Shown: positions 5,874-40,727, counted from the stretch's first letter. The stretch is 43,981 nt of DNA from a virus (IMGVR_UViG_3300045988_012512:1-43981), one strand, 5' to 3'. Translations and numbers: made by a program. Notes: a model not told the origin generated them from the sequence alone.

Positions 5874-8161
5874 TATTTAAACCCCGGCGCGTTTCTTGTG
5901 GCCTTGCGGGCCTTGCTAATCTTACTGTTGCTGTTCTGCAAAGACGCGGCGACTTGCTCCTCTATGATGATACGCAGACGGCCTTCATCATCTTGTTCTG
6001 TGGATACGTTGCCGATTTGAGAACTTGTGTTGTTTACGATAGTAACATTAGACGGGCCGGAAGAAGACCCGTTTTGCCCCATAATTTCTTTCATCTGCTG
6101 CGCGGTGCGCACGCGTGATGCACCAGCTGGCATGATAACTTCTGGTTTACCACGTTCTGCGATGGTGGAAGCCTGCCCCGCAGATAACTGACCGCCCTGT
6201 TCACGCGCGGACCGGATAGCGGAAACCTGCGCCATACCTGCACCAACGGCAGCGGCAGCGGCTACAGGGGCCAGGAACGGGCCAACTACAGGTATAGCTG
6301 CCGTTGACTTGTACGCCTCAATAGCTGCGGTGTACGTGGCGATAGTGGCCTGTACGATAGCGAATGCCTTGTACGCGCCAGAAGCCTCACCCAACGCAGA
6401 CCCGATGTTTGAGGCCATGTTACCAAAGGCCGTTGCCGTTGCATCGGCACGTTTGGTTGCGTATTGCTCGTTGATGGCGTTAAGAGCGGCCTGATACTGC
6501 TTCTCGCTAATCAAACCCTGCTCGCGGTACTTATCCGCTACCGCCAGTTTCTGCTGTTCCTGGATGTCGAGAAGCTCAAGCTCAGTAGCGTTCTGACCCA
6601 TAATCTGAGCCATGAAGTCGTCACCTTTCTGCTGCTTTTCCTGGGCTTCTTTCTGGCGTTTATCCAGTTCATCTTGTCGTTTTTGCCCGGCTTCGAGGAC
6701 GATAGCTGTTTTAGCTTGTTCATATTCTTTCAGGGACAACGCGCCCTGGCTGTAGAACTCTTTTGCCTTAGCCAGTTTCTGCTGTTCCTGCGCGTCGATA
6801 GCCTTTAACTCGTCGTTGTTCTGACGGGCCAAAGTGTCGAGGTAATCTTGCGCCTGATTCCGCAATTGCTCTGCTTTCTTGGCGGCGGCTTTTGCTGCTT
6901 TATCGTCGGTTGTCCCCACCCCACCAGTTCCGCCCTTTTTATTAACAAGGCTGGCTAAGTCAATTTCTTGCTTCTTACGCTCGTCGTACTGCTTGCGCTG
7001 TTCCTCAATTTCTTTCTTACGCTGTTTCGAGCGGTCAGTTATTGCCTGTGATTCTGCCTCCGCGCGTTTTATGCTAGCGGCGTACGCGGCGTCGGCCTCT
7101 GCGGTCAGGTTTTTAAATGTTAGCGCCGCCGTTTTGCTCGGGTCAAACACGTCGGCAAGGGTCTGCCCTAACGCTACAGCGTAATCGTCGATGCGCTGGA
7201 ACCACGCAATAACCTCGTGAAATGTCTGCTGGATGTCCGGCAACCACTCACGGATAGCATCCGGTATAGTCCCCAGCGAGTCAGACATATCAACGGATTT
7301 GTCCTCGGTATCGAATGCCAGGTCATTCAAGGCGTCGGAAATAAACTTGAATGACTCATTGAACAGCGCCACCCAATCCTGGAGCGTGGCGGCTATCTCA
7401 TTAGACGCGATGGCGTCGGTAAGCGCCGTGATAGCGTCTTCCGCTGTGGCCGCTTGCTCACCTACGGCGTCGCCAAAACCAGACTGCGCCACCGCAAGAA
7501 CAAGACCGTCGAAGGAGTCGGCGAGGCTCGATAACTGGCCGTCTAGCGTCTTAGAGCGCGTCTCCATCGCCCCGGCAAAATCGGTGTTGCCGATATTCAG
7601 GAGGTATTTCTGAATCTCTTCGGAGTTCTTCTTAACCGTGGTCGTTACGCCGCGGAACGTGAACGAAACTGTATCTGCCTGTTGCGACGACTTGATGCCG
7701 AACTCTTTTAAGCGCTCAAATTCAAATGTACTGGCGTCGGCAACTGCCTCAATCATCTGATTAAGGTCTTTACCCATAGCCGCCGCGGTGTTGCCGTAGG
7801 AGATTAACGCCTCTTTGCTGGGGTTCAGACCGAGCGCAACGAGCTTGGTAAACCCCTCTACCGCCTGATTGAGACCATACGGGGTCTCTTTTGCGAACTG
7901 TTGCAGGACGCTGAAAGCCTTAGCCGCGTTCTCGGCGCTCCCGGTCATCGTGATGAGGCCGGAGTTCAGCTTATCGAAGTTTCGCTGGGAATCCACCAGC
8001 GCGCTGAACACCTGCTTAGCGGTTTCCAGACTGACAACGGCGGCGGCGGCGGCCCCCGCCGCCTTGGTAAGCCCGTTCAGTTGTGATGTGGTTTTATCGA
8101 CGCCGGTCGATGATACTCGTACTATCAAGCTAGCGGTATCAGCCATGATTTCTACCTTCAA
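5873..8161 (-). CDS. tail tape measure protein
   Basis: 762 aa, Ala/Gln-rich with long coiled-coil segments; located between chaperones and tip genes. Confidence 0.8.
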   Translation of the reverse strand: MKVEIMADTASLIVRVSSTGVDKTTSQLNGLTKAAGAAAAAVVSLETAKQVFSALVDSQRNFDKLNSGLITMTGSAENAAKAFSVLQQFAKETPYGLNQAVEGFTKLVALGLNPSKEALISYGNTAAAMGKDLNQMIEAVADASTFEFERLKEFGIKSSQQADTVSFTFRGVTTTVKKNSEEIQKYLLNIGNTDFAGAMETRSKTLDGQLSSLADSFDGLVLAVAQSGFGDAVGEQAATAEDAITALTDAIASNEIAATLQDWVALFNESFKFISDALNDLAFDTEDKSVDMSDSLGTIPDAIREWLPDIQQTFHEVIAWFQRIDDYAVALGQTLADVFDPSKTAALTFKNLTAEADAAYAASIKRAEAESQAITDRSKQRKKEIEEQRKQYDERKKQEIDLASLVNKKGGTGGVGTTDDKAAKAAAKKAEQLRNQAQDYLDTLARQNNDELKAIDAQEQQKLAKAKEFYSQGALSLKEYEQAKTAIVLEAGQKRQDELDKRQKEAQEKQQKGDDFMAQIMGQNATELELLDIQEQQKLAVADKYREQGLISEKQYQAALNAINEQYATKRADATATAFGNMASNIGSALGEASGAYKAFAIVQATIATYTAAIEAYKSTAAIPVVGPFLAPVAAAAAVGAGMAQVSAIRSAREQGGQLSAGQASTIAERGKPEVIMPAGASRVRTAQQMKEIMGQNGSSSGPSNVTIVNNTSSQIGNVSTEQDDEGRLRIIIEEQVAASLQNSNSKISKARKATRNAPGFK

Positions 8162-9028: not shown

Positions 9029-9057
9029 TTGCACACCCCAATATAATAGGGTACTAT
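9029..9057 (+). promoter_or_regulatory. sigma70-type promoter (TTGCAC-17-TACTAT) for the plus-strand island
   Basis: Canonical spacing; same promoter architecture recurs at 18527, 29673 and 30772. Confidence 0.55.
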
Positions 9058-9087
9058 TCACTTACACCAACAATGAAGGGGTTTAAA

Positions 9088-9317: not shown

Positions 9318-10448
9318 ATGGCCCAGAAGAAAATAACCGACGAACAGTTACAGGAAGAATTGAACGCCGGGATGAAGAATGTAGACATCGCCCGTAAATA
9401 CGGCATCTCAGACCGCGTTATTCGTATCCGTAAAGCGAAGCTGGCTAAGAAAGGCGTAGGTCACGGGCGAGACGTTAGTCACCTTGTGCCCGATGGCTAC
9501 AAGATTAAGGGTACATCGTCTCTGGTGGACGAGTTCGGCAACACTAAGTTGCAATGGGTTAAGACCGACACCGATGCCGAACGTCAGGTAGAGTTGATGA
9601 AAGCCGTAATCGAAGGAATGAAATCAGAGATTACGCCAGTCGCCCCTGTTAAAGCGGCACGCGCCAAACGTGACGATAAACTACTCAATCTTTACACTGT
9701 GTCTGATTTTCATCTCGGTATGCTGGCATGGGCCGATGAGAGCGGCGACGACTGGGATATGAAGATTGCAGAAGACCTGTTCTCTCGATGGTTCGACGCG
9801 GCGTTTCAGAAAGCACCGGACGCGGGAACAGGAGTTATTAACCTTCTGGGCGACCTCGCTCACTTCGATAGTCTGGATGCAGTTACACCTGCAAGCGGGC
9901 ATGTTCTTGATGCGGACACGCGCTATCAGAAACTTGTACGCTATATGATTCGGATGGTCCGCCGTGTCATTGATATGGCGCTGGTTAAGCATAAAAATGT
10001 TCGCTTGCTTATCGTGCAAGGGAACCACGACGAAAGCGGAATGATTTGGTTGGCTGAGATGTTCAGTACGCTGTATGACAACGAGCCGCGGGTGTTCGTC
10101 GATACGTCGCCGGATGTTTACAAGATGGTGCAACACGGCAAAACGACGCTGTTCTTTCATCACGGTCACAAAGCACGCTTCGACGCTATCGAACCAGTTA
10201 TGATTGCCAAGTTCCGCAAAGCGTTCGGCGAGAGTATTTACAGCTACGCCCACGTAGGCCATCTGCACCACCAGAAGATTGTAGAAAGCCGTAACATGAT
10301 TGTTGAGCAACACCGCACCTTAGCGGCTAAAGACGCCTACGCCTCTCGCGGCGGATGGATGTCGGGCCGCAGTGCAAATGTAATTACTTATAGCGCCGAA
10401 TATGGCGAGGTCGCACGTTTAACTATTTCACCGGAGATGCTGGGATGA
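9318..10448 (+). CDS. HTH domain fused to calcineurin-like (SbcD/Mre11-type) metallophosphoesterase
   Basis: N-terminal HTH (VDIARKYGISDRVIRIRKAKL); five phosphoesterase motifs SDFHLG, GDLAHFD, GNHDE, HHGH, GHLHH. Confidence 0.75.
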   Translation: MAQKKITDEQLQEELNAGMKNVDIARKYGISDRVIRIRKAKLAKKGVGHGRDVSHLVPDGYKIKGTSSLVDEFGNTKLQWVKTDTDAERQVELMKAVIEGMKSEITPVAPVKAARAKRDDKLLNLYTVSDFHLGMLAWADESGDDWDMKIAEDLFSRWFDAAFQKAPDAGTGVINLLGDLAHFDSLDAVTPASGHVLDADTRYQKLVRYMIRMVRRVIDMALVKHKNVRLLIVQGNHDESGMIWLAEMFSTLYDNEPRVFVDTSPDVYKMVQHGKTTLFFHHGHKARFDAIEPVMIAKFRKAFGESIYSYAHVGHLHHQKIVESRNMIVEQHRTLAAKDAYASRGGWMSGRSANVITYSAEYGEVARLTISPEMLG

Positions 10449-10933
10449 AAGATATTGTAATTTTCGATTTAGACGGGACATTGGCCGACGGTACCCATCG
10501 CTTACACCTGTTACCAAAAGATAACTACGGAGAAACGTGGGCGTGGAAGCCATTTAACATGGCCTGCAAAGATGACGCTCCGATATACGACAATATCCAT
10601 TTGTGTAGCGTACTGTGGCATTCCGGACTTACTATAATTATCCTTACCGGGCGAAGTGATGACGCTGAGGAGGAGACTCGCGAATGGTTACGAGAGAATA
10701 ACGTTAGGTTTGACACGCTAATCATGCGCAGCAAACACGACAACAGAAAAGACATCGTAATTAAAGAAGAGGTGTTGCGTGCTTTCGGACTGGAAAGAAT
10801 CTTGTGTGCGTTCGACGACTCTCCAGCGGTAATAAAGCATTTCCGTGACCTCGGCATAACCGCACACGCAGTTACCGAATACGACTGTAACGGGAACTCT
10901 ACACACTTAAAACCACACGGGAGCGATAAATAA
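10445..10933 (+). CDS. HAD-superfamily phosphatase (T4 polynucleotide kinase 3'-phosphatase-domain-like)
   Basis: FDLDGTLA, IIILTGRSDD, RKDIVIKEEVL and DDSPAV motifs; ATGA overlap with the upstream gene. Confidence 0.7.
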   Translation: MKDIVIFDLDGTLADGTHRLHLLPKDNYGETWAWKPFNMACKDDAPIYDNIHLCSVLWHSGLTIIILTGRSDDAEEETREWLRENNVRFDTLIMRSKHDNRKDIVIKEEVLRAFGLERILCAFDDSPAVIKHFRDLGITAHAVTEYDCNGNSTHLKPHGSDK

Positions 10934-11487
10934 TGGCTAAGGTAATTATTCTTAATGGCCCTGCGGGTTGCGGGAAAGACACGCTTGCTATGGCGCTGGT
11001 AGAAATGGGCTTTGCGAAAGGAACTACCAGTTTCAAGAATCCAATGTTCAATATTGCTTTGGCAGCGTTAGGCCAGGATGCTTACCACGAATTTCTCGAC
11101 GGCTACGACGACCGGGCGCGGAAAGAAAAACCCGAGGGTTTTCTTAATGGGTTGTCCCGCCGCCAGTTAATGATTGCCATTTCTGAGCAATTCATTAAAC
11201 CGGTATTCGGCGATGATTATTTCGGTAAGTATCTTGCTGAAAACTTGCCTGACGGCGACGAAGTTTTTGTAGTGTCCGACGGTGGATTCGCCAGTGAAGT
11301 TGCCCCTATCGTCGCCGCGGGGCATGACGTGCGAATCGTCCGCCTCCATCGTGACGGCTATACGTTCATCGGCGATAGCCGTGGCTATCTGTACGATGTT
11401 AGTGGTGTAAAAGATTACGACACCTACATCATACCGGGTGACGTTAAATCGAACGTTATAGACATTGCTTTAAAATTAGGTTTGTAA
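10933..11487 (+). CDS. deoxynucleoside monophosphate kinase (T4 gene 1-like P-loop kinase)
   Basis: Walker A GPAGCGKDT; further blocks resemble T4 dNMP kinase; TAATG overlap with the HAD gene. Confidence 0.65.
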   Translation: MAKVIILNGPAGCGKDTLAMALVEMGFAKGTTSFKNPMFNIALAALGQDAYHEFLDGYDDRARKEKPEGFLNGLSRRQLMIAISEQFIKPVFGDDYFGKYLAENLPDGDEVFVVSDGGFASEVAPIVAAGHDVRIVRLHRDGYTFIGDSRGYLYDVSGVKDYDTYIIPGDVKSNVIDIALKLGL

Positions 11488-16925: not shown

Positions 16926-17683
16926 TATTTTTTCCTCAGGGCTTTAAGTTGCCGTTCAAATTCGGCAGGGTTCGATTCGTACAGAGCGATACGCTCCGCT
17001 TCACTCATGTCTTTAAACGCTGGTGCGGCCCCGCCGCCTTTGCTACCGGAAGCCCCGCCGCCGGAAGCTGCATTTGCTTTAATCAAATGCGAAAACGCTT
17101 TGTGTTCGCGCAGGTATTTGCGGAACTGTTCCGGGTCAGTCGTGATTACGTTGCCATCTGCACCGACAAACTTAGTAACCACGTCATCACCCTCGAACTC
17201 AGTCTTAACGAACGGAGCAAGAATGTCTACTGCTTCCGGGGTAATAAAATCACCTGCGAAAGAGCCTAACACCGCTTTACGTTCGCTGCCGAGGATGCGC
17301 TCTGCCATTTTGGAGATGCGACCATCTTTCTCGGCTAACACCGGGTCATACTGGCTACGAATCGTCTTTTCGAACTCGTCCATCTTACCGGCGGCTTTTA
17401 GCGCCTCCTGGTGCGCGCGCTGACGTTCCTCTTCGGCCTCTTTTGCTTTACGGGCGGCTTCTTTCTTCTCCGCCAGCAATGCTTCCTGATTGGCCTTAAG
17501 TCCGGCAACTTCTTTCTCAATCATCGCCTGAACTTCTTCAGCGGTGAACATTTTTGGAGCGTCGCCACCGCCAGATTTATCTTCTGCCCCAGCTTCTTCC
17601 TGGAACGGATAGTGTAAAAAACGATTCATAGTCAGTATGTCCCCTGGACGTTGGAATCCGGGCCTCCCGGATTTACATGTCAA
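16925..17683 (-). CDS. scaffolding protein
   Basis: Charged, helical, coiled-coil-rich ORF directly upstream of the capsid gene; real start may be the ATG at 17629. Confidence 0.55.
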   Translation of the reverse strand: MTCKSGRPGFQRPGDILTMNRFLHYPFQEEAGAEDKSGGGDAPKMFTAEEVQAMIEKEVAGLKANQEALLAEKKEAARKAKEAEEERQRAHQEALKAAGKMDEFEKTIRSQYDPVLAEKDGRISKMAERILGSERKAVLGSFAGDFITPEAVDILAPFVKTEFEGDDVVTKFVGADGNVITTDPEQFRKYLREHKAFSHLIKANAASGGGASGSKGGGAAPAFKDMSEAERIALYESNPAEFERQLKALRKK

Positions 17684-18526: not shown

Positions 18527-18555
18527 TTGCGCACACCAACATAATAGGGTACTAT
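18527..18555 (+). promoter_or_regulatory. sigma70-type promoter (TTGCGC-17-TACTAT) for the DnaN-like gene
   Basis: Spacer and -10 region nearly identical to the promoter at 9029. Confidence 0.55.
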
Positions 18556-18582
18556 TCAGTTAACTTAAACAGGAGATGAGAA

Positions 18583-19104
18583 ATGGTTACTACAGTAATT
18601 ACTTTCCCTGCGTATGTAGGGGCAAAAATCTGCAGGGCTAAAAATGATGTGCGCTACTATTTGAACGCTTTTTACATAGACCCTGAAGGATTGATAGTGT
18701 CTACGGACGGTCATAGATTGTTCTGCGACAATGTGAAGACCAATGTTGAGAAAGGGACTCTCATAGACATCAAAGGGAGAGAGCCTTCTAAATTTAACTA
18801 CGCAGAGGTAAACCACGACAACGGCAGTGTAACTTTCTATGACGATAATCGTGCGCTTATATGCACGCTTCCGGTAGATGTTGTAGAAGGAAACTTTCCT
18901 GACTGGAGACGCGTGGCGAACATCACACCGGGTGTTGTCGATAGTATAGGGTTCACTCTGCGCTATTTGGCAGACGCGTACAAGATTTCTAAGGCATACA
19001 AAAATGAAATTGCTCGTTTCGATTTCCAGGACCAAACCAGAGGATGTAAAATACTATTTTCAAACACGGCCTTTATGGTGTTAATGCCTGCGCGATTTAA
19101 ATAA
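18583..19104 (+). CDS. truncated DNA polymerase III beta sliding-clamp (DnaN) homologue
   Basis: DVRYYLN, STDGHRL, FPDWRRV and C-terminal VLMPARFK match E. coli DnaN motifs DVRYYLNG, TDGHRL, FPDYRRV, VMPMRL; AGGAG RBS, own promoter and terminator. Confidence 0.7.
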   Translation: MVTTVITFPAYVGAKICRAKNDVRYYLNAFYIDPEGLIVSTDGHRLFCDNVKTNVEKGTLIDIKGREPSKFNYAEVNHDNGSVTFYDDNRALICTLPVDVVEGNFPDWRRVANITPGVVDSIGFTLRYLADAYKISKAYKNEIARFDFQDQTRGCKILFSNTAFMVLMPARFK

Positions 19105-26641: not shown

Positions 26642-26670
26642 AATATAATAGGGTCGAGGGTAATAGTCAA
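26642..26670 (-). promoter_or_regulatory. sigma70-type promoter (TTGACT-17-TATATT)
   Basis: Read on the minus strand, immediately after a strong terminator. Confidence 0.5.
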
Positions 26671-26692
26671 CTAGTCATTGCAGAAAATAGAT

Positions 26693-29642: not shown

Positions 29643-29672
29643 CTCTGTCTCTCCTCTCGCTTGTGTAAATGA

Positions 29673-29701
29673 ATAGTAGCCTATTCTATCTTAGCGTGCA
29701 A
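29673..29701 (-). promoter_or_regulatory. sigma70-type promoter (TTGCAC-17-TACTAT)
   Basis: Same architecture as the promoters at 9029 and 30772. Confidence 0.5.
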
Positions 29702-30737: not shown

Positions 30738-30771
30738 AACCACCACTCCTCTGTCTCGTTTCGATAAGTGA

Positions 30772-30800
30772 ATAGTATCCTATTATATTGGGGTGTGCAA
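30772..30800 (-). promoter_or_regulatory. sigma70-type early promoter (TTGCAC-17-TACTAT)
   Basis: -35, spacer and -10 nearly identical to the promoter at 9029..9057. Confidence 0.55.
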
Positions 30801-31152
30801 GAGAATAGTTACGTTGCCGTTGTGATTCTTTCGTTTCTTTAAAGAGTACGCAACGCAGTGGGTGGGCGATAGCCCACCCCAGCGGAGTGAAGTACTCTCT
30901 ACCTTGCTTACGGCAACTAAAGAAACTTTTAATTATCAAGTACTTATGAATGGAGGTAAAATTTAAATAGACGGGGTCTTTCTTGTCACTTGCTGTTACT
31001 TTTAGGAAACTTAGATACTAACGTTACCAAGAGTACTGTTTAGCGCCCCGCTTTAGGGCGGGGCTTTAAGTACCCGAGACTTAAGAATAATGTTTCTAAG
31101 TAATTCTGAACTAAGGCCCTTCGATACGTTGATTTTACAGCTACATTTTATT
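30801..31152. promoter_or_regulatory. divergent control region with nested palindromes, AGTAC repeats and a conserved hairpin
   Basis: About 350 bp without credible ORFs between divergent operons; inverted repeat AGAGTAC/GTACTCT around an 8-bp GC hairpin; hairpin element at 31042..31068. Confidence 0.5.
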
Positions 31153-31192
31153 TTGTCAATAGGTTGTGTTTAGTTATTATAGGTGTTATAGT
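31153..31192 (+). promoter_or_regulatory. tandem sigma70-type promoters (TTGTCA-16-TATTAT and TTGTGT-17-TATAGT) for the plus-strand operon
   Basis: Hexamers with canonical spacing upstream of the gene at 31222. Confidence 0.45.
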
Positions 31193-31221
31193 TGTTTAAC
31201 TTGATAAAGAGGGCGTGTAAA

Positions 31222-31401
31222 ATGACACAGAAAGAAGTAGCAGACTTAATCGGAGTTTCCACTATGACTCTTAATCGCTGGCTTCGGTCCGGTAAGTTCC
31301 CGGAGTGTTGCCGTGTTATTAACGGCTACCGGCAGCCAGGTACGTTTGACCGCGCTACCGTGGAGGCGTGGATTAAGGAGAACGTGAAAGATGCTAACTA
31401 A
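31222..31401 (+). CDS. small HTH DNA-binding protein (AlpA/excisionase-like)
   Basis: MTQKEVADLIGVSTMTLNRWLRSGKFP; AGAGGG RBS (ORF track starts at 31192 with a non-ATG codon). Confidence 0.5.
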   Translation: MTQKEVADLIGVSTMTLNRWLRSGKFPECCRVINGYRQPGTFDRATVEAWIKENVKDAN

Positions 31402-31666
31402 ATTCCAGAAACACATATTAATGTGTGCGCGCAGACTTACCGAGGCGAACGGTGCTTTTACGGTAGATGGGCTTCGTAGATACCGGTTAGATAATTACGG
31501 TGTAAATCCGATTAAACATGCTTTAAATGTTCTTGAGCAACACGGAGAGGTTCTTAATAAAGGAAAGTTTTATCGGGCAACAAGAGCAACGCCGATTACA
31601 GAGAAAGCGAGAAGTATTGGAAAAGTGTTGGTCCCCGAGGGTAATATCTCCCGCGACCTGGAATAA
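31391..31666 (+). CDS. hypothetical protein
   Basis: 91-aa ORF overlapping the upstream stop. Confidence 0.4.
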   Translation: MLTKFQKHILMCARRLTEANGAFTVDGLRRYRLDNYGVNPIKHALNVLEQHGEVLNKGKFYRATRATPITEKARSIGKVLVPEGNISRDLE

Positions 31667-31724
31667 AAGAAAGCCCCGACGCGGTGAACGCCGAGGCCAA
31701 ATTACTTACTGAAGGAAATACAAC

Positions 31725-33992
31725 ATGTCCGATGTAATTTTATCCTACTCGTGGTCTCGTCGCAACGCGCGGGCAGAGAAAAAGGATATAAACGTCAGAA
31801 CCACACACACGGCAACACTGGACGACCTGAAAGAGTTAATCCAGCCGCTTGATGCTGTCCGTGACGGAATTAACCCGAAGACAGCGCCCGGTTATATCAC
31901 CGCCGCGTGCGACTCAACGCACAGCACCGTAAAAGACCCGGAAACCGGTGACTTTAAGCGAGCGCGTAAAGGCTTCTTCTATCGCTGTGACGCGTCTGTA
32001 AGCAAATCATCGCTGGCGTATCTGGACTTTGACAGCGCAACGCCGGAAGAGTATCAGGAAGCGGTGCGCCTGGTTAAGCGTAGCCGCCAGGCTATGTGTC
32101 TCTACACCACGGCATCCCATACCGATGAGTCACCGCGCTTTCGCGTCGTCATGCCGCTGGGCCGCCCGGTCGAAGGGGGCGACATCATCCGCATACGTCA
32201 TGGATTGCTGGAGCACTTCTTCAAAGGCATGGGCGCTGACCGTAGCGGGTTCACTTTGTCTCAGCCCATGTACCTTCCTCCGGTAGGCTCTCAGGTTATC
32301 TGGTCGCGCCGTAACGACCTTATTGACCCGGAAGAGTTACTGGAAGGCATCCCCGCCGTTGACGTTAGCAGCGCATCTGACTACCAGATACCGGAAGAAC
32401 TGCGCACTGCATTTACTGATGCGTTCGAGGCACTGGCGTTCGAATACGGCGGCATCATGACGCCGCGTGGCCTTAAGATGCCCGCCACACCGGAACACGC
32501 AGAAAACTACAGCGACCCGACCCCGCGCCCGGACGACTTCCTGCTGTGCTTCCCGCGCGAGGGATATGAAGCGCCGAACGTAACGATGATTCACGACACC
32601 GACATCACGGCAACCGAAGGCATGTCGCCGAAAGAGGTGTGGAAGTATGCGTGTGATGCGACCGGACTGCCGTTCAGTGAAGTCGCAGAGGCCATCGGAT
32701 GGGGCGCGCGTGAAGCCGTCTCATGCAGCCTGGATGACCTTGAAGACGACGAGGACTCAGAGGAGGACGAGTTACCGGAACCGGTAAAGGCTGATTTCGT
32801 CGTTGAGGGGTACATGCCGTCGGATTGTATCTGGGATATTGTTGGGGAGTCTGGCACGTATAAATCATTCTATACGCTGGGGATGATGTACCTGAGCGCC
32901 GCCGGATACCGGTTTGCCGGGGCAGATACCCAGCGTTGCCACCATTTCTATATCGACGGTGAGGGCGGTGCCACTACACGCACCCGTATTGATGCACTCG
33001 CGGCTAAATATGGCGAGGAAGGTAAAGATTATGTACATGTTATCGATATGGGTGAAGTCGGAAAACTGAAAAGCCTGATTAAGTTAATGCGCGAAACTGC
33101 GGGTGATGAACCCATCGGCATGGTCGCGTTCGACACCCTTAACCAGACGCTGGCCCTGACGATTGATAAGTTCGACGAGAACAGTTCATCAACGGCAATC
33201 GGCATGGGTAAAGTTATCGCCATCCTGAAAGAAGTACGCGACGCAACTAAAGCCGCGGCAGGCGTTGTACACCATACGCCGAAGGGTGGAAAGAAAGCCC
33301 GTGGCAGTGGAGCATTGTATGCTGGTGTCGACGTGGAACTGACAATCGAACGTGCTACCGACCGTCAGATAAACGTATACCACTCTAAATTTAAGCACGG
33401 GCCTCAACAGAAGACGGTTGGCATGGTACTGGAGTCGGTACAGTTTCGTGAAGCACCGCCGCCGAAAGAGTACCGCGCGGTTGAGTTCCTCGGTAGCACA
33501 GAGGAATACGGCACAATAGTAAACCTCGACCTGCCTGAGCCGCACAAGGCGCTTGTGCTGATGCCGTGGGGCTTCGAGCCGTTCAAGACTGATGAGGAGA
33601 AAGAGCGGGAAGAAGGGTTAACTAACGAAGGTAAACAAAATGTACGTAAAACCGTAGAGAACGCCGTCAACAGTTCCGAGTCCACTATACTCGCGGCGTT
33701 TGAACTGGCGGAGGGGACCTACAACGGCAACGAAGGTATCACGGTATCCGCGGCGAATAAGCTCGCACAGTCTGACCCCAACGCAAAGGCGTTTAACTCC
33801 AAAGAAGCCATAGAACGCGGGAAGATTAAGAAAATGGTTGAGGCTGGGTATCTTGTTCCGGGTACTGACGAAAACAATCAGATAATCCCAGGCCGTTACA
33901 GACTTAACACCCGGATAACGGATAACAAGATTCCGAAGACAATATACGAACCCAATGAGATGCTGACAGTGACAGAGGAGGATTTGGAATGA
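31725..33992 (+). CDS. replication protein: primase-like N-terminal domain plus RecA-like ATPase/helicase domain
   Basis: N-terminal LAYLDFD and SHTDESPRFRV (primase-polymerase-like); central GESGTYKS P-loop and MVAFDTL Walker-B-like segment. Confidence 0.55.
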   Translation: MSDVILSYSWSRRNARAEKKDINVRTTHTATLDDLKELIQPLDAVRDGINPKTAPGYITAACDSTHSTVKDPETGDFKRARKGFFYRCDASVSKSSLAYLDFDSATPEEYQEAVRLVKRSRQAMCLYTTASHTDESPRFRVVMPLGRPVEGGDIIRIRHGLLEHFFKGMGADRSGFTLSQPMYLPPVGSQVIWSRRNDLIDPEELLEGIPAVDVSSASDYQIPEELRTAFTDAFEALAFEYGGIMTPRGLKMPATPEHAENYSDPTPRPDDFLLCFPREGYEAPNVTMIHDTDITATEGMSPKEVWKYACDATGLPFSEVAEAIGWGAREAVSCSLDDLEDDEDSEEDELPEPVKADFVVEGYMPSDCIWDIVGESGTYKSFYTLGMMYLSAAGYRFAGADTQRCHHFYIDGEGGATTRTRIDALAAKYGEEGKDYVHVIDMGEVGKLKSLIKLMRETAGDEPIGMVAFDTLNQTLALTIDKFDENSSSTAIGMGKVIAILKEVRDATKAAAGVVHHTPKGGKKARGSGALYAGVDVELTIERATDRQINVYHSKFKHGPQQKTVGMVLESVQFREAPPPKEYRAVEFLGSTEEYGTIVNLDLPEPHKALVLMPWGFEPFKTDEEKEREEGLTNEGKQNVRKTVENAVNSSESTILAAFELAEGTYNGNEGITVSAANKLAQSDPNAKAFNSKEAIERGKIKKMVEAGYLVPGTDENNQIIPGRYRLNTRITDNKIPKTIYEPNEMLTVTEEDLE

Positions 33993-34186
33993 GCGGTAAA
34001 TTTAAAGAAGTAAGCGACGAACTGAAAGGCAATAAATACACCAACCACAGAGGCGAAGTAGTTGAAGTTCTTAACGTAGTTCCTTATGGGCGCGGGTATC
34101 ATGTTGTGTACAGTTACACAGAGGCTTACAGCGTGTACTGCGGGTTAGGTAAGTTTCGCAAAAGATACCCGATAAAGGTGCAATAA
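33989..34186 (+). CDS. hypothetical protein
   Basis: 65-aa ORF, ATGA-coupled to the primase/helicase gene. Confidence 0.35.
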   Translation: MSGKFKEVSDELKGNKYTNHRGEVVEVLNVVPYGRGYHVVYSYTEAYSVYCGLGKFRKRYPIKVQ

Positions 34187-34191
34187 AAAGA

Positions 34192-34210
34192 AAGGGGCAT
34201 TAAGCCCCTT
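34192..34210. terminator. bidirectional intrinsic terminator (AAGGGGC-ATTAA-GCCCCTT)
   Basis: Hairpin between convergent genes, T-runs on both sides. Confidence 0.6.
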
Positions 34211-34415
34211 CACCTAACGCCAGCCACTTGGCGTCTACTTCCAGCACTTCCGCCAGTTTAAACAGCGTTGCCGGGCGGACGTCCTGAGTTACACCGAGAG
34301 CCAGCTGGTTAATCGCACCCTGGGAAACGCCAGTCAGGACAGCCAGCCGGCGCTGGGAGATGCCGAGTTCTTTACGGCGTTGCTCTACACGGATTCCTAG
34401 TTCAGATGGTTGCAT
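34200..34415 (-). CDS. XRE-family (Cro/CI-type) HTH transcriptional regulator
   Basis: LGISQRRLAVLTGVSQGAINQL HTH; AAGGAG RBS; divergent from the promoter at 34480. Confidence 0.65.
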   Translation of the reverse strand: MQPSELGIRVEQRRKELGISQRRLAVLTGVSQGAINQLALGVTQDVRPATLFKLAEVLEVDAKWLALGEGA

Positions 34416-34479
34416 GTCAATTACTCCTTAGTCAGTTGATATGTGAATAGTACCATATTAATTATTTTAGAAAAGCCCA

Positions 34480-34508
34480 TTGACATGTGAATAGTTCGCT
34501 ATTATAGT
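34480..34508 (+). promoter_or_regulatory. consensus sigma70 promoter (TTGACA-17-TATAGT)
   Basis: Perfect -35; overlaps the second copy of the ATGTGAATAGT direct repeat. Confidence 0.6.
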
Positions 34509-34538
34509 TAGCCCATACCAAACGAGAGGAGAGACAAA

Positions 34539-34700
34539 ATGAAGTTCAGAGTAGACATGCAACCAACAGAAGAAATGTTAAAAGCCGGCATAGACCAACT
34601 GATATACTACATCCCTGGCATCGAGGATGAAGTCGATGAAGAGCAACTATCAGACGCCGTTTATTTTATCTGGCAAGCAATGATTCAAGCGTCAAAATAA
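34539..34700 (+). CDS. hypothetical small protein (53 aa)
   Basis: GAGAGGAGAG RBS before ATG 34539. Confidence 0.35.
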   Translation: MKFRVDMQPTEEMLKAGIDQLIYYIPGIEDEVDEEQLSDAVYFIWQAMIQASK

Positions 34701-34715
34701 ACAGGAGAACAAATA

Positions 34716-35237
34716 ATGTTAGAGAAATTCTTAGTATTACTGGAACGTTTCGTAGTTGCACATGAACTGATTGCTGCGAACAGTGTGAAACAACCGACTA
34801 ATAAATCTGTAGGTGAATTGACTGTTGACGTCGCGGTAACTGGGGTGGAGACAGTTAAAAAAGAACTGGCTAAAGCACTTGAAGAAGTCGAGAAGGCGAA
34901 AGAACTCCCAGTCGAAGGTGAAGACCTCGTTGACACTAAACCGGCGGAAGAAGAGAAGCCGAAACGCAAGCCGCGTAAAGCTAAAGTAGAGGAGCAGACG
35001 CCAGAACCGGAAGAAGAGAAGGAAGAAGTCAATTATCAGTCTCTGCGCGACCAGATTCAGGCTATCGACGATGCGATTAACGAAGGTCCGAGTGACACCG
35101 CGTGTGATGATTCCGATGAACTGCTGGAAGAGTTCACTGGTAAGAAGATGAAGATTGCTGCTATTAAAGACGAAGACCTCGCCGAGTACCTGGAACGCCT
35201 GACAGCAATCAAGAACAAGTATTTCGAAGAAGAATAA
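34716..35237 (+). CDS. highly acidic Glu/Asp-rich protein
   Basis: AGGAG RBS; long Glu/Asp/Lys-rich segments. Confidence 0.45.
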   Translation: MLEKFLVLLERFVVAHELIAANSVKQPTNKSVGELTVDVAVTGVETVKKELAKALEEVEKAKELPVEGEDLVDTKPAEEEKPKRKPRKAKVEEQTPEPEEEKEEVNYQSLRDQIQAIDDAINEGPSDTACDDSDELLEEFTGKKMKIAAIKDEDLAEYLERLTAIKNKYFEEE

Positions 35238-35243
35238 TCATCT

Positions 35244-35264
35244 GGCGGCCTTCGGGCCGCTTTA
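35244..35264 (+). terminator. intrinsic terminator
   Basis: GCGGCC-TTCG-GGCCGC followed by TTTAACT. Confidence 0.45.
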
Positions 35265-35280
35265 ACTGAGGGTCGGAATT

Positions 35281-35559
35281 ATGATTTACCAACTCTACCG
35301 CGCCTTTGACAGGCGGGATAACACGGAGGCGTTGTGGTTATTGCGTGCGCCGTCCGGTGCACACCAGATGGAAGAGATGGCGTACTTAGGAAAAGTGCCA
35401 CGGCCTAAAGATATAGGCCGCCACGTGTCGCAGATTAAGCGCACGACTTTCGCCAAACCTGACTTTTACGTCTTCGAGTCGATGTATGGCTGGGCCATGC
35501 ATTGCGACCATAAGACAAGACATTTAATTGACCAGTGGGAGAACAGGGTATGTTTGTAA
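35281..35559 (+). CDS. hypothetical protein
   Basis: 92-aa ORF. Confidence 0.4.
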   Translation: MIYQLYRAFDRRDNTEALWLLRAPSGAHQMEEMAYLGKVPRPKDIGRHVSQIKRTTFAKPDFYVFESMYGWAMHCDHKTRHLIDQWENRVCL

Positions 35560-35690
35560 TTATGTATTCAATCGGTGAGGAAGAGTACGAACACAGTAGA
35601 TACCTTACATCCGCAGAGGCTGAGAATATAATACACGAACTTGACGCTGACAGTTTTGACTACGCATGGATTGAGGAGATTACGGAATGA
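35550..35690 (+). CDS. hypothetical small acidic protein (46 aa)
   Basis: ATG 35550 with GGAGAACAGGG upstream; ATGA-coupled to the exonuclease gene. Confidence 0.3.
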   Translation: MFVIMYSIGEEEYEHSRYLTSAEAENIIHELDADSFDYAWIEEITE

Positions 35691-36928
35691 TTCTTAAAGA
35701 ACGTGGTGGCAATAACGATGTGCACGCAATACTGTCGCCGTCTGGCGCTAAAAAGTGGTTAAGTTGCGCGGCATCACTGGCATGTGAAAAAGATATTCCT
35801 AACACGTCCGGTAAAGACGCCGTATTAGGCACGGCTATGCACACGATAGCGGAGATGCACCTTAACCAGTACATCAAAGGCACTGCGCTGCCGTTAGAGC
35901 GTGAAGTCGGCGCTTACGTGATGGATGAGGGTAAAGGTCAGATTAAGGCGCTAATCAGTCCGATGAAAGGCGCGGTGCTTATTACGGCGGACATGATTGA
36001 GCAGGTGCGCAAGTACACCGACTACTGCAAAGCGATTATCGATGTAGCTACTTACGCCAAACTCGAGATGCGCGTCAATCTTACTGAGGTATTGCACCCC
36101 GGTTACGAAGGCGTTGAGACATTCGGAACCGCTGACCTTGTTGCCGTCCAGGAACTGGCGAACATCGACGAGCACATGCTTATCATCGGCGACCTGAAAA
36201 CTGGACGGCATCGTGTCGAAGCGAAAGAAAACAAGCAGCTTATGCTATACGCTCTCGGTGTTTATCGCCGACTAAAGAGACGTTATAACATCACAGTTGT
36301 TCGTCTGGTCATCTTCCAGCCGTACGCGGGTGGCGCGTCGGAGTGGGACATCTCGGTCGAAGGTCTGGAACTGTTCGCCAAGTTCGCACAGAAACGCGCA
36401 CTGTTGGCTCTTGATGCATATTTCCGCGGTAAGAAGAACCTGAAAGCGTCTGACTTCAAGCCGTCGGTCGATGGTTGTCAGTGGTGTCGGTTCTCTGAAC
36501 AATGCGCCGCGCGTACAAAGACGGTCAATTCTGTACTGGCGGAAGAACTGGAAGACGACTTTGCACTGGAACTGACGCCAGAGCAACTCGTAGCTGAGTA
36601 TGAGAAGCTGCCGTTGTTGCGCCAGCACATCGACAAGGTTGAGAAAGCTATGGTCGCCGCGTTGCATTCTGGTAAGAAAGTGCCGGGGTACAAATTGGTT
36701 GAGGGTCGTCCAGGTAATCGTGCGTGGAAAGATGCCGATGCGGTATTCGAGAAGTACGGTACTATGCTGCAAAAGGTAGTTCTGATGACACCAACCGAAG
36801 CGGTTAAAGTAATACCAGAAGAAGAACTGAAAGACTTCATTACCCGTAAGCCAGGAGCGCCATGCGTCGCAACGGCGGATGACAAGCGTCCTGAGTGGAA
36901 TCAGGTAACAGAGGAGGATTTGGAATGA
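35687..36928 (+). CDS. Cas4/RecB-like PD-(D/E)xK exonuclease with Cys cluster
   Basis: N-terminal LSPSGAKKWLSC, IGDLKTGRH core, C-terminal CQWCRFSEQC. Confidence 0.65.
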   Translation: MILKERGGNNDVHAILSPSGAKKWLSCAASLACEKDIPNTSGKDAVLGTAMHTIAEMHLNQYIKGTALPLEREVGAYVMDEGKGQIKALISPMKGAVLITADMIEQVRKYTDYCKAIIDVATYAKLEMRVNLTEVLHPGYEGVETFGTADLVAVQELANIDEHMLIIGDLKTGRHRVEAKENKQLMLYALGVYRRLKRRYNITVVRLVIFQPYAGGASEWDISVEGLELFAKFAQKRALLALDAYFRGKKNLKASDFKPSVDGCQWCRFSEQCAARTKTVNSVLAEELEDDFALELTPEQLVAEYEKLPLLRQHIDKVEKAMVAALHSGKKVPGYKLVEGRPGNRAWKDADAVFEKYGTMLQKVVLMTPTEAVKVIPEEELKDFITRKPGAPCVATADDKRPEWNQVTEEDLE

Positions 36929-37098
36929 TGGTTTATATTCTCACGCGGTATCACCGCCGATACTCTATTCAAGAACTTGATATTGTTTCTGTCCACGCTA
37001 AACGCGCCGACGCCGACAAAATTGCAGAAGAGAAGAACTCGAAGCATGAGGCGGTGCAGCCATATATTTATAAGGTGGTTCCGAAGAAACTTAAATAA
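36925..37098 (+). CDS. hypothetical small protein
   Basis: GGAGGA RBS before ATG 36925 (ORF track starts at 36895). Confidence 0.35.
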   Translation: MMVYILTRYHRRYSIQELDIVSVHAKRADADKIAEEKNSKHEAVQPYIYKVVPKKLK

Positions 37099-37102
37099 AG
37101 TG

Positions 37103-37131
37103 TTGACACCTGAATAGCAAGCTATTATAGT
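37103..37131 (+). promoter_or_regulatory. consensus sigma70 promoter (TTGACA-17-TATAGT) for SSB and polymerase genes
   Basis: Perfect -35 with canonical spacing. Confidence 0.6.
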
Positions 37132-40413: not shown

Positions 40414-40697
40414 TGACCCCGGAAGGCAAAATACAGAAATACGCGAAAGAGCGATTCGAGGCCCTCGGCGGCCTCGTTCGTAAACTTTCCTATGAGGGGC
40501 GCTCCGGCGCTCCCGACCTGCTGGTGATTCTCCCCGGCGGCATCGTCTGGTTCGTCGAGGTTAAGAAAGACGAAAACACGGAACCAGACCCACACCAGTT
40601 ACGAGAGCATGAGCGGATGCGTAAACGTGGCGCGAATGTTTTTGTCGTCGGATCGTTTAAACAGGTTGACGACCTAATAGCGAACTATTATAGTTAG
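40413..40697 (+). CDS. VRR-NUC domain nuclease
   Basis: GAPDLLVILPGG...VWFVEVKK PD-(D/E)xK core. Confidence 0.65.
   Translation: MTPEGKIQKYAKERFEALGGLVRKLSYEGRSGAPDLLVILPGGIVWFVEVKKDENTEPDPHQLREHERMRKRGANVFVVGSFKQVDDLIANYYS
40666..40694 (+). promoter_or_regulatory. sigma70-type promoter (TTGACG-17-TATAGT) inside the 3' end of the VRR-NUC gene
   Basis: Canonical spacing; -10 identical to the promoters at 34480 and 37103. Confidence 0.45.
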
Positions 40698-40727
40698 CCC
40701 TACACCAACAATATAAGGAATTGAGAA

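What the first reader, a model, noticed from the sequence alone, without database searches (positions are those of the whole stretch)
34200..34538. XRE-type repressor gene on the opposite strand inside the replication module, with paired direct repeats in its divergent promoter region
A 71-aa Cro/CI-like HTH protein is encoded on the minus strand amid plus-strand replication genes. The 123-bp divergent region holds a consensus promoter TTGACA-17-TATAGT and two copies of ATGTGAATAGT (34441..34451 and 34485..34495), the second overlapping the promoter spacer. This looks like an autoregulated switch controlling the downstream module; with no integrase present it is not a lysogeny switch.
Basis: partly seen in the sequence, partly recalled or inferred. 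Interest (0 to 1): 0.5.

Follow-up and report, generated by a model that had tools for sequence, protein, structure and literature searches.

The report
Cro-like repressor and its promoter operators
A small Cro-type DNA-binding gene of a lytic E. coli phage sits beside two copies of a 14-bp palindrome that also lies inside nearly every other strong promoter of the phage. It is therefore most likely a genome-wide brake on phage transcription rather than a local switch; the parts are ordinary and only the breadth is mildly unusual.

Summary
The window is a Kagunavirus genome (Guernseyvirinae, about 91% identical to phage K1G). The ORF at 34200..34415 (-) is a 71-aa HTH_3 protein whose closest solved relative is phage 434 Cro. 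The 123-bp divergent region holds TTGACA-17-TATAGT and two exact copies of ATGTGAATAGT.

The repeat is not private to this locus. Its core is the palindrome AATAG-N4-CTATT, found at 11 sites in the window against about 1 expected, almost all inside sigma-70-type promoters. In 37 Kagunaviruses both half-sites are invariant, while the 4-bp centre and the linker to the -35 vary. Jerseyviruses share the motif. Cornellviruses carry a related one (ATTAG-N4-GTAWT) at orthologous promoters.

One copy (O1) overlaps the regulator's own extended -10 promoter. The other (O2) fills the spacer of the rightward promoter.

Best reading (confidence about 0.55): a Cro-only, autoregulated repressor that turns down most early and middle phage promoters. 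Binding is inferred, not shown, and recognition-helix differences between genera do not track the motif change.

The motif was already published as PHIRE "phage RNA polymerase promoters", but the window encodes no such polymerase. I found no integrase and no integrated copy in 5,426 complete E. coli genomes.

Verdict: a new member of a known kind, of moderate to low interest.

The parts
34200..34415 (-). 71-aa Cro/XRE-type HTH gene (monocistronic)
   Evidence: ORF. Pfam HTH_3 E 2.3e-12. 434 Cro E 8e-6. AF2 five-helix model with pLDDT 85, Foldseek TM 0.77-0.83 to 434 Cro. Shine-Dalgarno AAGGAG at 34428..34423, read.
34190..34211 (.). Hairpin terminator shared by the XRE gene (-) and probably the upstream + strand helicase-primase operon
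   Evidence: The scan called it on the - strand: GAAGGGGCTTAATGCCCCTTT followed by a T-run. The A-run on the other side suggests it also works for the + strand; that part is inferred.
34446..34459 (.). O1: AATAG-TACC-ATATT (one mismatch), overlapping the XRE promoter
   Evidence: Nearly invariant in 37 Kagunaviruses.
34447..34455 (-). Probable XRE promoter: extended -10 TGgTACTAT with no good -35; TSS predicted near 34440
   Evidence: Read. Jerseyvirus has TTGCGT-17-TACTAT at the homologous place. Same TACTATTCAC... layout as the class-2 promoters. Inferred, not mapped.
34464..34491 (-). Alternative XRE promoter TTCACA-16-TAAAAT
   Evidence: Scan hit, 10 of 12. Its -35 lies in the variable linker of relatives, so it is the less likely promoter.
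34480..34508 (+). P_right: TTGACA-17-TATAGT, driving 34539..37098
   Evidence: Both hexamers are invariant in 37 Kagunaviruses apart from one G-to-T change in the -10.
34490..34503 (.). O2: AATAG-TTCG-CTATT (perfect), inside the P_right spacer and touching the -10
   Evidence: Half-sites invariant while the centre and the linker to the -35 vary.
34436..34460 (+). 25-nt direct repeat, copy 1 (TTGATATGTGAATAGTACCATATTA); copy 2 is 34480-34504
34539..34700 (+). First gene after P_right (53 aa), in a hypervariable accessory slot
   Evidence: At least five unrelated first genes sit at this position in relatives.
37103..37131 (+). Class-1 promoter TTGACA-17-TATAGT with palindrome 37113-37126; drives the SSB-like and DNA polymerase genes
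40666..40694 (+). Class-1 promoter TTGACG-17-TATAGT with palindrome 40676-40689; drives the SNF2 helicase gene
30772..30800 (-). Class-2 promoter TTGCAC-17-TACTAT with palindrome 30771-30784; drives the leftward early genes
29673..29701 (-). Class-2 promoter TTGCAC-17-TACTAT with palindrome 29672-29685
9029..9057 (+). Class-2 promoter TTGCAC-17-TACTAT with palindrome 9045-9058; drives 9318..11487
18527..18555 (+). Class-2 promoter TTGCGC-17-TACTAT with palindrome 18543-18556; drives the RusA-like gene
26662..26675 (.). One-mismatch palindrome overlapping a -35 (TTGACT) upstream of small genes and terminase; 18452 and 21358 are two further one-mismatch sites of uncertain status
   Evidence: About one such site is expected by chance.

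Best explanation
The 71-aa protein is a 434-Cro-like repressor. It most likely binds as a dimer to the 14-bp dyad AATAG-N4-CTATT. It is made early from its own weak, extended -10 promoter. O1 overlaps that -10, so the protein would limit its own synthesis. O2 fills the spacer of the strong rightward promoter, so rising protein would shut down the recombination/replication operon. The same dyad sits across the -10 or spacer of at least six other strong sigma-70 promoters: the leftward early genes, the SSB/polymerase operon, the SNF2 helicase gene and two + strand islands. The protein would therefore act as a genome-wide turn-down of early and middle transcription during lytic growth, which is the 'Cro half' of a lambdoid switch without CI or integrase. 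The operator-free divergent promoters at 31132-31192 would be the unregulated immediate-early start. Shown here: the gene, the fold family, the promoters as consensus matches, the dyad, its enrichment, its selective conservation and its lineage specificity. Inferred: that this protein is the binder, that binding represses, and the timing.
For: Protein identity:
- HTH_3 at E 2e-12.
- Best PDB sequence matches are 434 Cro (also 71 aa) and the 434 repressor DNA-binding domain.
- AF2 model with five helices, TM about 0.8 to 434 Cro, P22 c2, SinR and C proteins.

The dyad is real:
- 7 perfect sites (about 0.03-0.1 expected) and 11 sites with at most one mismatch (about 1.1 expected).
- It is the top non-terminator dyad in the genome.
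- The seven perfect sites and O1 lie inside promoter-like sequences; three further one-mismatch sites are of uncertain status.

Selective constraint typical of a dimer site:
- In an alignment chosen by position, not by motif, of 37 Kagunaviruses, TGAATAG and CTATTATAGT are invariant (one G-to-T change in the latter).
- The 4-bp centre and the 2-3-nt linker to the -35 are highly variable, even in length.
- The same pattern holds at the other promoters.

The dyad occupies several registers relative to the -35, which argues against an RNA polymerase contact: N4-5, N7 and N10 after the -35, or over the -35 itself.

Lineage specificity:
- Kaguna- and Jerseyviruses carry AATAG-N4-CTATT at 7-14 sites per genome.
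- Cornellviruses have none. They carry ATTA[GCT]-N4-[GC]TA[AT]TA at orthologous promoters, 9 against 0.5 expected.
- Jersey- and Cornellviruses share the host Salmonella, so the reader of the motif is phage-encoded.

Candidate binder:
- This XRE protein is the only recognisable sequence-specific HTH conserved in all three genera. The HTH_17 protein has no Cornellvirus ortholog.
- The residues invariant across genera include those aligned with 434 Gln17 and Gln28.
- From my own knowledge, not tested here: the 14-bp A...-N6-...T geometry equals that of 434 operators (ACAA-N6-TTGT).

Expression timing: RNA-seq of a Kagunavirus placed an HTH-domain gene among only four early-peaking genes (PMC12645636). 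Whether that gene is this one could not be confirmed.
Against: - There is no binding or expression data for this protein.
- Nearly every strong promoter carries the dyad, so finding two copies next to the XRE gene is expected from its two promoters. That is not specific evidence that XRE is the binder.
- The predicted base-contacting positions differ between Kaguna (Q32, G33, Q37) and Jersey (Q, S, H), although both genera use the same dyad.
- Those positions are the same in Jersey and Cornell (Q, S, H), although their dyads differ. Protein-operator covariation is therefore not seen at those positions.
- The Cornellvirus motif is less symmetric.
- In class-2 promoters one half-site is itself the -10 (TACTAT), so part of the conservation there is explained by RNA polymerase.
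Confidence: 0.55

Rival explanations
1. The palindrome is an operator, but for a different, unrecognised phage protein. Candidates are the small early proteins or the conserved 92-aa and 173-aa proteins just downstream. The XRE protein would then have another, unidentified target or role.
For: The pattern of dyad conservation (Kaguna = Jersey, different in Cornell) matches the replication-module proteins: 86-97% identity between Kaguna and Jersey, 34-66% to Cornell. It does not match XRE, whose three lineages are equidistant at 41-48%. The XRE recognition-helix differences do not follow the motif change. Two dyads near XRE are explained by two promoters.
Against: No other conserved protein has a recognisable sequence-specific DNA-binding domain. 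A divergent XRE allele must keep its specificity if it is to serve about 10 dispersed operators, so low identity with an unchanged motif is not contradictory. The dyad geometry fits a Cro-type dimer.
Confidence: 0.2
2. The motif is not an operator. It is an intrinsic part of a family of phage promoters spread by duplication, read by host RNA polymerase (perhaps phage-modified) or, as published, by a 'phage RNA polymerase'.
For: PHIRE analyses of Kagunaviruses list the same 20-mers as seven 'phage RNAP promoters', with consensus tgAATAGTa-ccTATTat-T (PMC9825357; PMC7203180). One half-site always overlaps a -10-like hexamer. The promoters also share a downstream ACACCAAC-like element.
Against: There is no RNA polymerase gene in the window: all scanned ORFs of 300 aa or more are structural, packaging or replication proteins. 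The promoters have good sigma-70 -35 and -10 hexamers. The distal half-site lies in the spacer, where RNA polymerase reads little sequence, yet it is invariant while its neighbours vary. The motif has dyad symmetry, and its register to the -35 differs between promoters.
Confidence: 0.15
3. The protein is an immunity-type repressor. It would silence the whole genome to allow an integrase-free carrier state (episomal pseudolysogeny) with superinfection immunity.
For: Operators sit on almost all strong promoters. The Jerseyvirus SGP-C was reported to give turbid plaques and immune, possibly episomal 'lysogens' (PMC8790156). One blood isolate of E. coli carries a complete circular 44,086-bp Kagunavirus genome deposited as plasmid pC16EC0033-2.
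Against: There is one such record among 72,556 plasmids and none among 5,426 complete E. coli genomes. The family is consistently described as virulent (PMC9825357, PMC7203180, bioRxiv 10.1101/2024.09.12.612763). No partition or plasmid-maintenance genes were found. The protein has no C-terminal oligomerisation or cleavage domain. The immediate-early promoters at 31132-31192 carry no dyad. The SGP-C evidence is weak.
Confidence: 0.08

Closest known systems
Phage 434 Cro (and lambda/P22 Cro as a functional class)
   Same: Same length (71 aa). It is among the best PDB matches, with E 8e-6 by sequence and the highest structural similarity. It is a single-domain five-helix HTH. The candidate operators are 14-bp dyads overlapping -10 and spacer regions of early promoters, including its own divergent control region. 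The expected role is to turn down early transcription in lytic growth.
   Different: There is no CI partner, no tripartite OR/OL, no integrase and no lysogeny. The half-site is AATA(G) rather than ACAA. Operators are dispersed over about 9-11 promoters across the genome instead of two control regions. The gene stands alone between a terminator and its promoter.
P1 C1 repressor with dispersed operators (recalled from memory, not tested)
   Same: One repressor with many operators scattered over the phage genome, each overlapping a promoter.
   Different: P1 is temperate. C1 is a large, unrelated protein with asymmetric 17-bp operators and antirepressor control.
Restriction-modification controller (C) proteins such as C.AhdI and C.BclI
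   Same: Similar size and fold. They autoregulate through dyad boxes at their own promoter and act as timing devices.
   Different: There are no adjacent restriction or methylase genes. The two sites are 44-45 bp apart rather than forming an adjacent C-box pair. Most sites lie at other genes.
XRE-type antitoxins (HipB, HigA)
   Same: Fold and size.
   Different: There is no co-transcribed toxin: the gene is monocistronic and followed directly by a terminator.
PHIRE 'phage-specific promoters' of Kagunaviruses (fBC-Eco01, Golestan)
   Same: The same sequences. PP5 of fBC-Eco01 is the O1 copy next to its 71-aa 'transcriptional repressor'.
   Different: They were published as phage RNA polymerase promoters. 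Here they are read as sigma-70 promoters with an embedded dyad operator, because no phage RNA polymerase gene exists.

Membership tests
Cro/C1-type (XRE) HTH, Pfam HTH_3 PF01381 | Sequence match above the curated threshold | tested here: met
   47.2 bits against a cut-off of 23, E 2.3e-12, residues 11-65.
Cro/C1-type (XRE) HTH, Pfam HTH_3 PF01381 | Five-helix globular fold with the HTH formed by helices 2-3 | tested here: met
   AF2 model with helices at 5-17, 21-28, 32-39, 48-57 and 62-66, pLDDT 85. Foldseek TM 0.77-0.83 to 434 Cro 2cro/3cro.
Cro/C1-type (XRE) HTH, Pfam HTH_3 PF01381 | Sequence-specific binding to a dyad-symmetric operator | not testable with these tools
   A candidate 14-bp dyad was identified. 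No binding assay or protein-DNA modelling is available.
Lambdoid Cro (the lytic arm of a CI/Cro switch) | Small single-domain repressor without a peptidase or oligomerisation domain | tested here: met
   The protein is 71 aa and the only Pfam hits are HTH families that overlap on the same single domain.
Lambdoid Cro (the lytic arm of a CI/Cro switch) | Divergently transcribed CI-type repressor sharing the operator region | tested here: not met
   The divergent gene is an unrelated, variable 53-aa ORF. No second XRE or S24-peptidase protein was found in the window.
Lambdoid Cro (the lytic arm of a CI/Cro switch) | Operators overlap its own and the early promoters | tested here: met
   In silico only. 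O1 lies over the TACTAT -10 of the XRE gene, O2 lies in the P_right spacer, and dyads lie over six other promoters.
Lambdoid Cro (the lytic arm of a CI/Cro switch) | Part of a temperate phage with an integrase or lysogeny module | tested here: not met
   No integrase was found. No integrated copy exists in 5,426 complete E. coli genomes.
R-M controller (C) protein | Encoded next to, and controlling, a restriction endonuclease or methyltransferase | tested here: not met
   The neighbours are the helicase-primase and replication/recombination genes.
Type II toxin-antitoxin antitoxin (HipB/HigA type) | Co-operonic toxin gene | tested here: not met
   The gene is monocistronic: the terminator at 34190-34211 follows the stop codon.
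Phage RNA polymerase-specific promoters (published reading of the motif) | The phage encodes its own RNA polymerase | tested here: not met
   All scanned ORFs of 300 aa or more are assigned to tail, head, packaging or replication functions, and none resembles an RNA polymerase.

The most novel reading that the evidence does not exclude
A family of nominally virulent siphoviruses has placed one 14-bp operator on nearly every strong promoter. A Cro-only repressor reading it could then silence the whole genome. This would provide an integrase-free, CI-free carrier state with superinfection immunity (episomal pseudolysogeny). It would explain the turbid-plaque 'lysogens' reported for SGP-C and the Kagunavirus genome deposited as a plasmid in a clinical E. 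coli isolate.
Probability: 0.08. Interest if true: 0.7.

Novelty: new member of a known kind. Interest (0 to 1): 0.35.

Why it matters
Kaguna- and Jerseyviruses are widely proposed for phage therapy, biocontrol and synthetic-biology chassis work. The 71-aa gene is variously annotated as 'repressor', 'Cro', 'DicA' or 'hypothetical', and has been used to argue that some isolates are temperate. The evidence here points to a Cro-only lytic-cycle regulator with a defined 14-bp operator on most promoters. That reading has four uses:
- It corrects the published 'phage RNA polymerase promoter' annotation.
- It gives a compact, testable model of temporal control in a small virulent phage.
- It supplies a ready-made repressor/operator pair and promoter set for engineering these phages.
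- It identifies a single protein whose expression in trans might block infection.

Tried and rejected
- **Protein-operator covariation across the three genera.** The motif changes between Jersey and Cornell, but the residues aligned with the 434 base contacts do not, and they do change between Kaguna and Jersey, which share the motif. The test was inconclusive.
- **Mosaic phages carrying a foreign XRE allele.** VSiP and TS6 turned out to be ordinary Cornellviruses. The 78%-identical allele in L126 has the same recognition helix as the window.
- **Scan of IMG/VR with the 15-base motif.** Single hits in unrelated contigs are at chance level. Only Guernseyvirinae contigs have multiple hits, so no independent lineage was found.
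- **The 9-bp inverted repeat CATGTCAAT/ATTGACATG (34413-21 and 34479-87).** It is not conserved in relatives, so I rejected it as an operator.
- **CRP-like reading of the TGTGA in the 11-mer.** The partner half-site is absent and the TG is variable in relatives, so I rejected it (read).
- **Identity of the early HTH gene in the K1B4 RNA-seq paper.** The supplements lack phage gene coordinates, and the GenBank record is permuted relative to the authors' numbering. It remains unresolved.
- **Rfam scan of the window.** No hits.
- **The Jerseyvirinae taxonomy paper.** It is not held in the library.

Full report
**What the window is.** A 6-kb stretch around the finding matches 446 phage records. 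The best is E. coli phage K1G at about 91% identity, followed by other Kagunaviruses and, at 80-90%, Salmonella Jerseyviruses. The window is therefore a Guernseyvirinae siphovirus genome of about 44 kb. The scanned ORFs resolve as follows:
- Minus strand: structural, packaging and lysis genes.
- Leftward: a set of small early genes.
- Plus strand: an HTH_17 gene, helicase-primase, DUF2800/PD-(D/E)XK nuclease, Enc34-type SSB, family A DNA polymerase, VRR-NUC and SNF2 helicase.

I found no integrase and no RNA polymerase.

**Check of the observation.** All stated features are present at the stated coordinates.
- ORF 34200..34415 (-) encodes 71 aa and matches HTH_3 at E 2.3e-12.
- 34416..34538 is 123 bp.
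- TTGACA (34480) -17- TATAGT (34508) matches the consensus at 11 of 12 positions.
- ATGTGAATAGT occurs exactly twice, at 34441 and 34485, and nowhere else in the window.
- Only 0.26% of shuffles of the 123 bp contain any exact direct repeat of 11 nt or more.
- The repeat extends to 25 nt: TTGAYATGTGAATAGTnnnnTATTA, with spacing 44.
- A G+C-rich hairpin with flanking A- and T-runs (34190-34211) directly follows the gene. It also closes the upstream + strand operon.

**What the repeat really is.** The core of both copies is the dyad AATAG-N4-CTATT. O2 (34490-34503) is perfect and O1 (34446-34459) has one mismatch.
- The dyad occurs at 7 perfect sites and 11 sites with at most one mismatch, against about 1.1 expected (mononucleotide shuffles).
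- It is the most over-represented non-terminator dyad in the genome.
- Sites with two mismatches are at background level.

Read in context, the sites lie in sigma-70-like promoters of two layouts.
- Class 1 is TTGACA-N4/5-AATAG-N4-CTATT-ATAGT. The -10 is TATAGT and the dyad fills the spacer. Examples are 34480, 37103 and 40666, all + strand replication operons.
- Class 2 is TTGCAC-N10-AATAG-N3-TACTATT. The promoter-proximal half-site is part of the -10 TACTAT. Examples are 9029+, 18527+, 29701- and 30800-.
- A Jerseyvirus promoter shows a third register (N7), and the site at 26662 overlaps a -35.

The XRE gene's own promoter is a class-2 relative. On the minus strand, O1 reads AATAT-GGTA-CTATT and contains TGgTACTAT, an extended -10. 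Jerseyviruses have TTGCGT-17-TACTAT at the homologous place. The divergent promoters between the two genome arms (31132-31192) carry no dyad.

**Evidence that the dyad is a protein-binding site.** I took the region upstream of the XRE gene by position, not by motif, from 37 Kagunaviruses (35 distinct sequences).
- The -35 TTGACA is invariant.
- The 2-3-nt linker is hypervariable in both sequence and length.
- TGAATAG is invariant.
- The centre varies: ttcg, ttca, ttag, ctag, tttg, ctcg.
- CTATTATAGT is invariant apart from one G-to-T change.
- The bases after the -10 vary again.

The promoters at 37113 and 40676 and the class-2 sites show the same picture. RNA polymerase reads little sequence in the spacer. 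Invariant symmetric half-sites around a free centre, in several registers relative to the -35, are the signature of a dimeric DNA-binding protein.

**Lineage specificity.**
- Jerseyviruses carry the same dyad at orthologous promoters, at 7-10 sites per genome.
- The Cornellvirus Shemara has none. It carries ATTA[GCT]-N4-[GC]TA[AT]TA instead, 9 against 0.5 expected, while the window has 0 of these.
- The Shemara sites are at orthologous positions, and other Cornellviruses repeat the pattern.
- Jersey- and Cornellviruses both infect Salmonella, so a host factor, or host polymerase alone, does not explain the difference. The reader of the motif should be phage-encoded.

- It is conserved in essentially all Guernseyvirinae: at least 94% identity within Kagunavirus, about 48% to Jersey and about 41% to Cornell.
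- It is the only recognisable sequence-specific HTH shared by all three genera. The HTH_17 protein has no Cornellvirus ortholog.
- Its best solved relatives are 434 Cro (71 aa) and the 434 repressor DNA-binding domain.
- The AF2 model is a five-helix domain with TM about 0.8 to 434 Cro.
- The invariant residues include those aligned with 434 Gln17 and Gln28.
- From my own knowledge, not tested here: 434 operators are 14-bp ACAA-N6-TTGT with Gln28 reading the outer A. The dyad here is AATA-N6-TATT, the same geometry, at 9 sites against 0.5 expected.

Arguments against:
- Every strong promoter has a dyad, so two dyads beside a gene with two promoters is not specific evidence.
- The positions aligned with the 434 base contacts are Q/G/Q in Kaguna and Q/S/H in both Jersey and Cornell. 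That is the opposite of what the motif distribution predicts.
- The three protein lineages are equidistant, while the dyad follows the replication-module phylogeny.

I put the probability that this protein binds the dyads at roughly 0.55-0.6.

**Mechanism proposed.**
1. Immediate-early transcription starts from the operator-free promoters at about 31150.
2. The XRE gene is transcribed from its own extended -10 promoter.
3. As the protein accumulates, it occupies the perfect dyads. O2 blocks P_right, and the dyads at 37113 and 40676 block the SSB/polymerase and helicase promoters. The class-2 dyads block the leftward early genes and the two + strand islands.
4. It finally occupies the imperfect O1 over its own -10, capping its own level.

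This is the 'turn-off' function of a lambdoid Cro without a CI partner. O1 and O2 are 44 or 45 bp apart in different relatives, so strict helical phasing and looping are unlikely. One RNA-seq study of a Kagunavirus lists an HTH-domain gene among only four early-peaking genes (PMC12645636). I could not confirm that it is this gene.

**What is already known.**
- The gene is annotated in relatives as transcriptional repressor, regulator, Cro, DicA or hypothetical protein.
- The motif has been reported. PHIRE found seven 'phage RNAP promoters' in fBC-Eco01 with consensus tgAATAGTa-ccTATTat-T. One of them (PP5) is the O1 copy next to the 71-aa repressor gene (PMC9825357). Seven PHIRE promoters are also listed for Golestan (PMC7203180).
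- Because the window encodes no RNA polymerase and the sites have good sigma-70 hexamers, that attribution is not supported here.
- I found no paper in the held library that reads the motif as an operator or links it to the XRE protein.

**Lysogeny.** There is no integrase and no CI-type partner. The 6-kb region has no integrated copy in 5,426 complete E. coli genomes. Two loose ends keep a carrier-state reading alive at low probability. The Jerseyvirus SGP-C was reported to give turbid plaques and immune, possibly episomal 'lysogens' (PMC8790156). One clinical E. coli assembly contains a complete circular Kagunavirus genome as 'plasmid' pC16EC0033-2.

**Verdict.** The locus is an ordinary autoregulated Cro/XRE-type control region in design. 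The added finding is that its operator is shared by most promoters of the phage, and that the published reading of that motif is probably wrong. It is a new member of a known kind, with interest about 0.35.

Noticed in passing
window 34218-34252 (inside the XRE gene): A type I-E CRISPR spacer of E. coli strain 2017.09.02CC (NZ_AP025214.2, 4038605-4038639) matches 35 of 35 bases. It is the only hit of the 6-kb region in 5,426 complete E. coli genomes.
   Followed up: partly
CP088689.1 (locus L204), relative of window 31000-37000: A circular 44,086-bp 'plasmid', pC16EC0033-2, from an E. coli blood isolate is a complete Kagunavirus genome that includes the XRE gene. It could reflect a carrier state, pseudolysogeny or culture contamination.
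   Followed up: partly
window 34539-34700: The first gene after P_right is a hypervariable slot. At least five unrelated small genes occupy it in different Kagunaviruses, while the promoter and the following 173-aa gene are conserved. It looks like an accessory or moron insertion point.
   Followed up: no
window 30790-31130: About 340 bp has no convincing ORF and lies between the class-2 promoter at 30800 and the immediate-early divergent promoters. It contains two strong hairpins (30858-30882 and 31044-31068). There is no Rfam hit. It could hold a small RNA, an origin or terminators.
   Followed up: partly
window 34509-34525, 40695-40712, 9058-9075 and other promoter-proximal transcribed regions: A conserved ACACCAAC or ATACCAAAC element lies 8-12 nt downstream of the -10 of many dyad-bearing promoters, and also in Jersey- and Cornellviruses. 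Its function is unknown; a leader or initial-transcribed-sequence role is possible.
   Followed up: no
window 9318-11487 (+) and 18583-19104 (+): Two + strand gene islands sit inside the minus-strand late region, each under a class-2 promoter. The first holds a metallophosphatase, a PNKP-type HAD phosphatase and a P-loop protein, which together look like an RNA-repair set. The second holds a RusA-like resolvase.
   Followed up: no
L002 35330-38169, L084, L085 (Cornellviruses): In Cornellviruses the XRE gene heads the helicase-primase operon and is divergent from the rest of the replication genes. In Kaguna- and Jerseyviruses it stands alone and is convergent with helicase-primase.
   Followed up: partly
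window 31192-34700 compared with SE2 (L001): The conservation is mosaic. XRE (48%), helicase-primase (59%) and the small neighbouring genes are far more diverged between Kaguna- and Jerseyviruses than the adjoining replication genes (86-97%). A recombination boundary lies at the P_right promoter.
   Followed up: partly
window 7941-8140, 16941-17140, 34901-35060: These are the other 123-bp windows that contain exact direct repeats of 11 nt or more. They lie in the tape-measure, scaffold and acidic 173-aa genes. I did not examine them.
   Followed up: no
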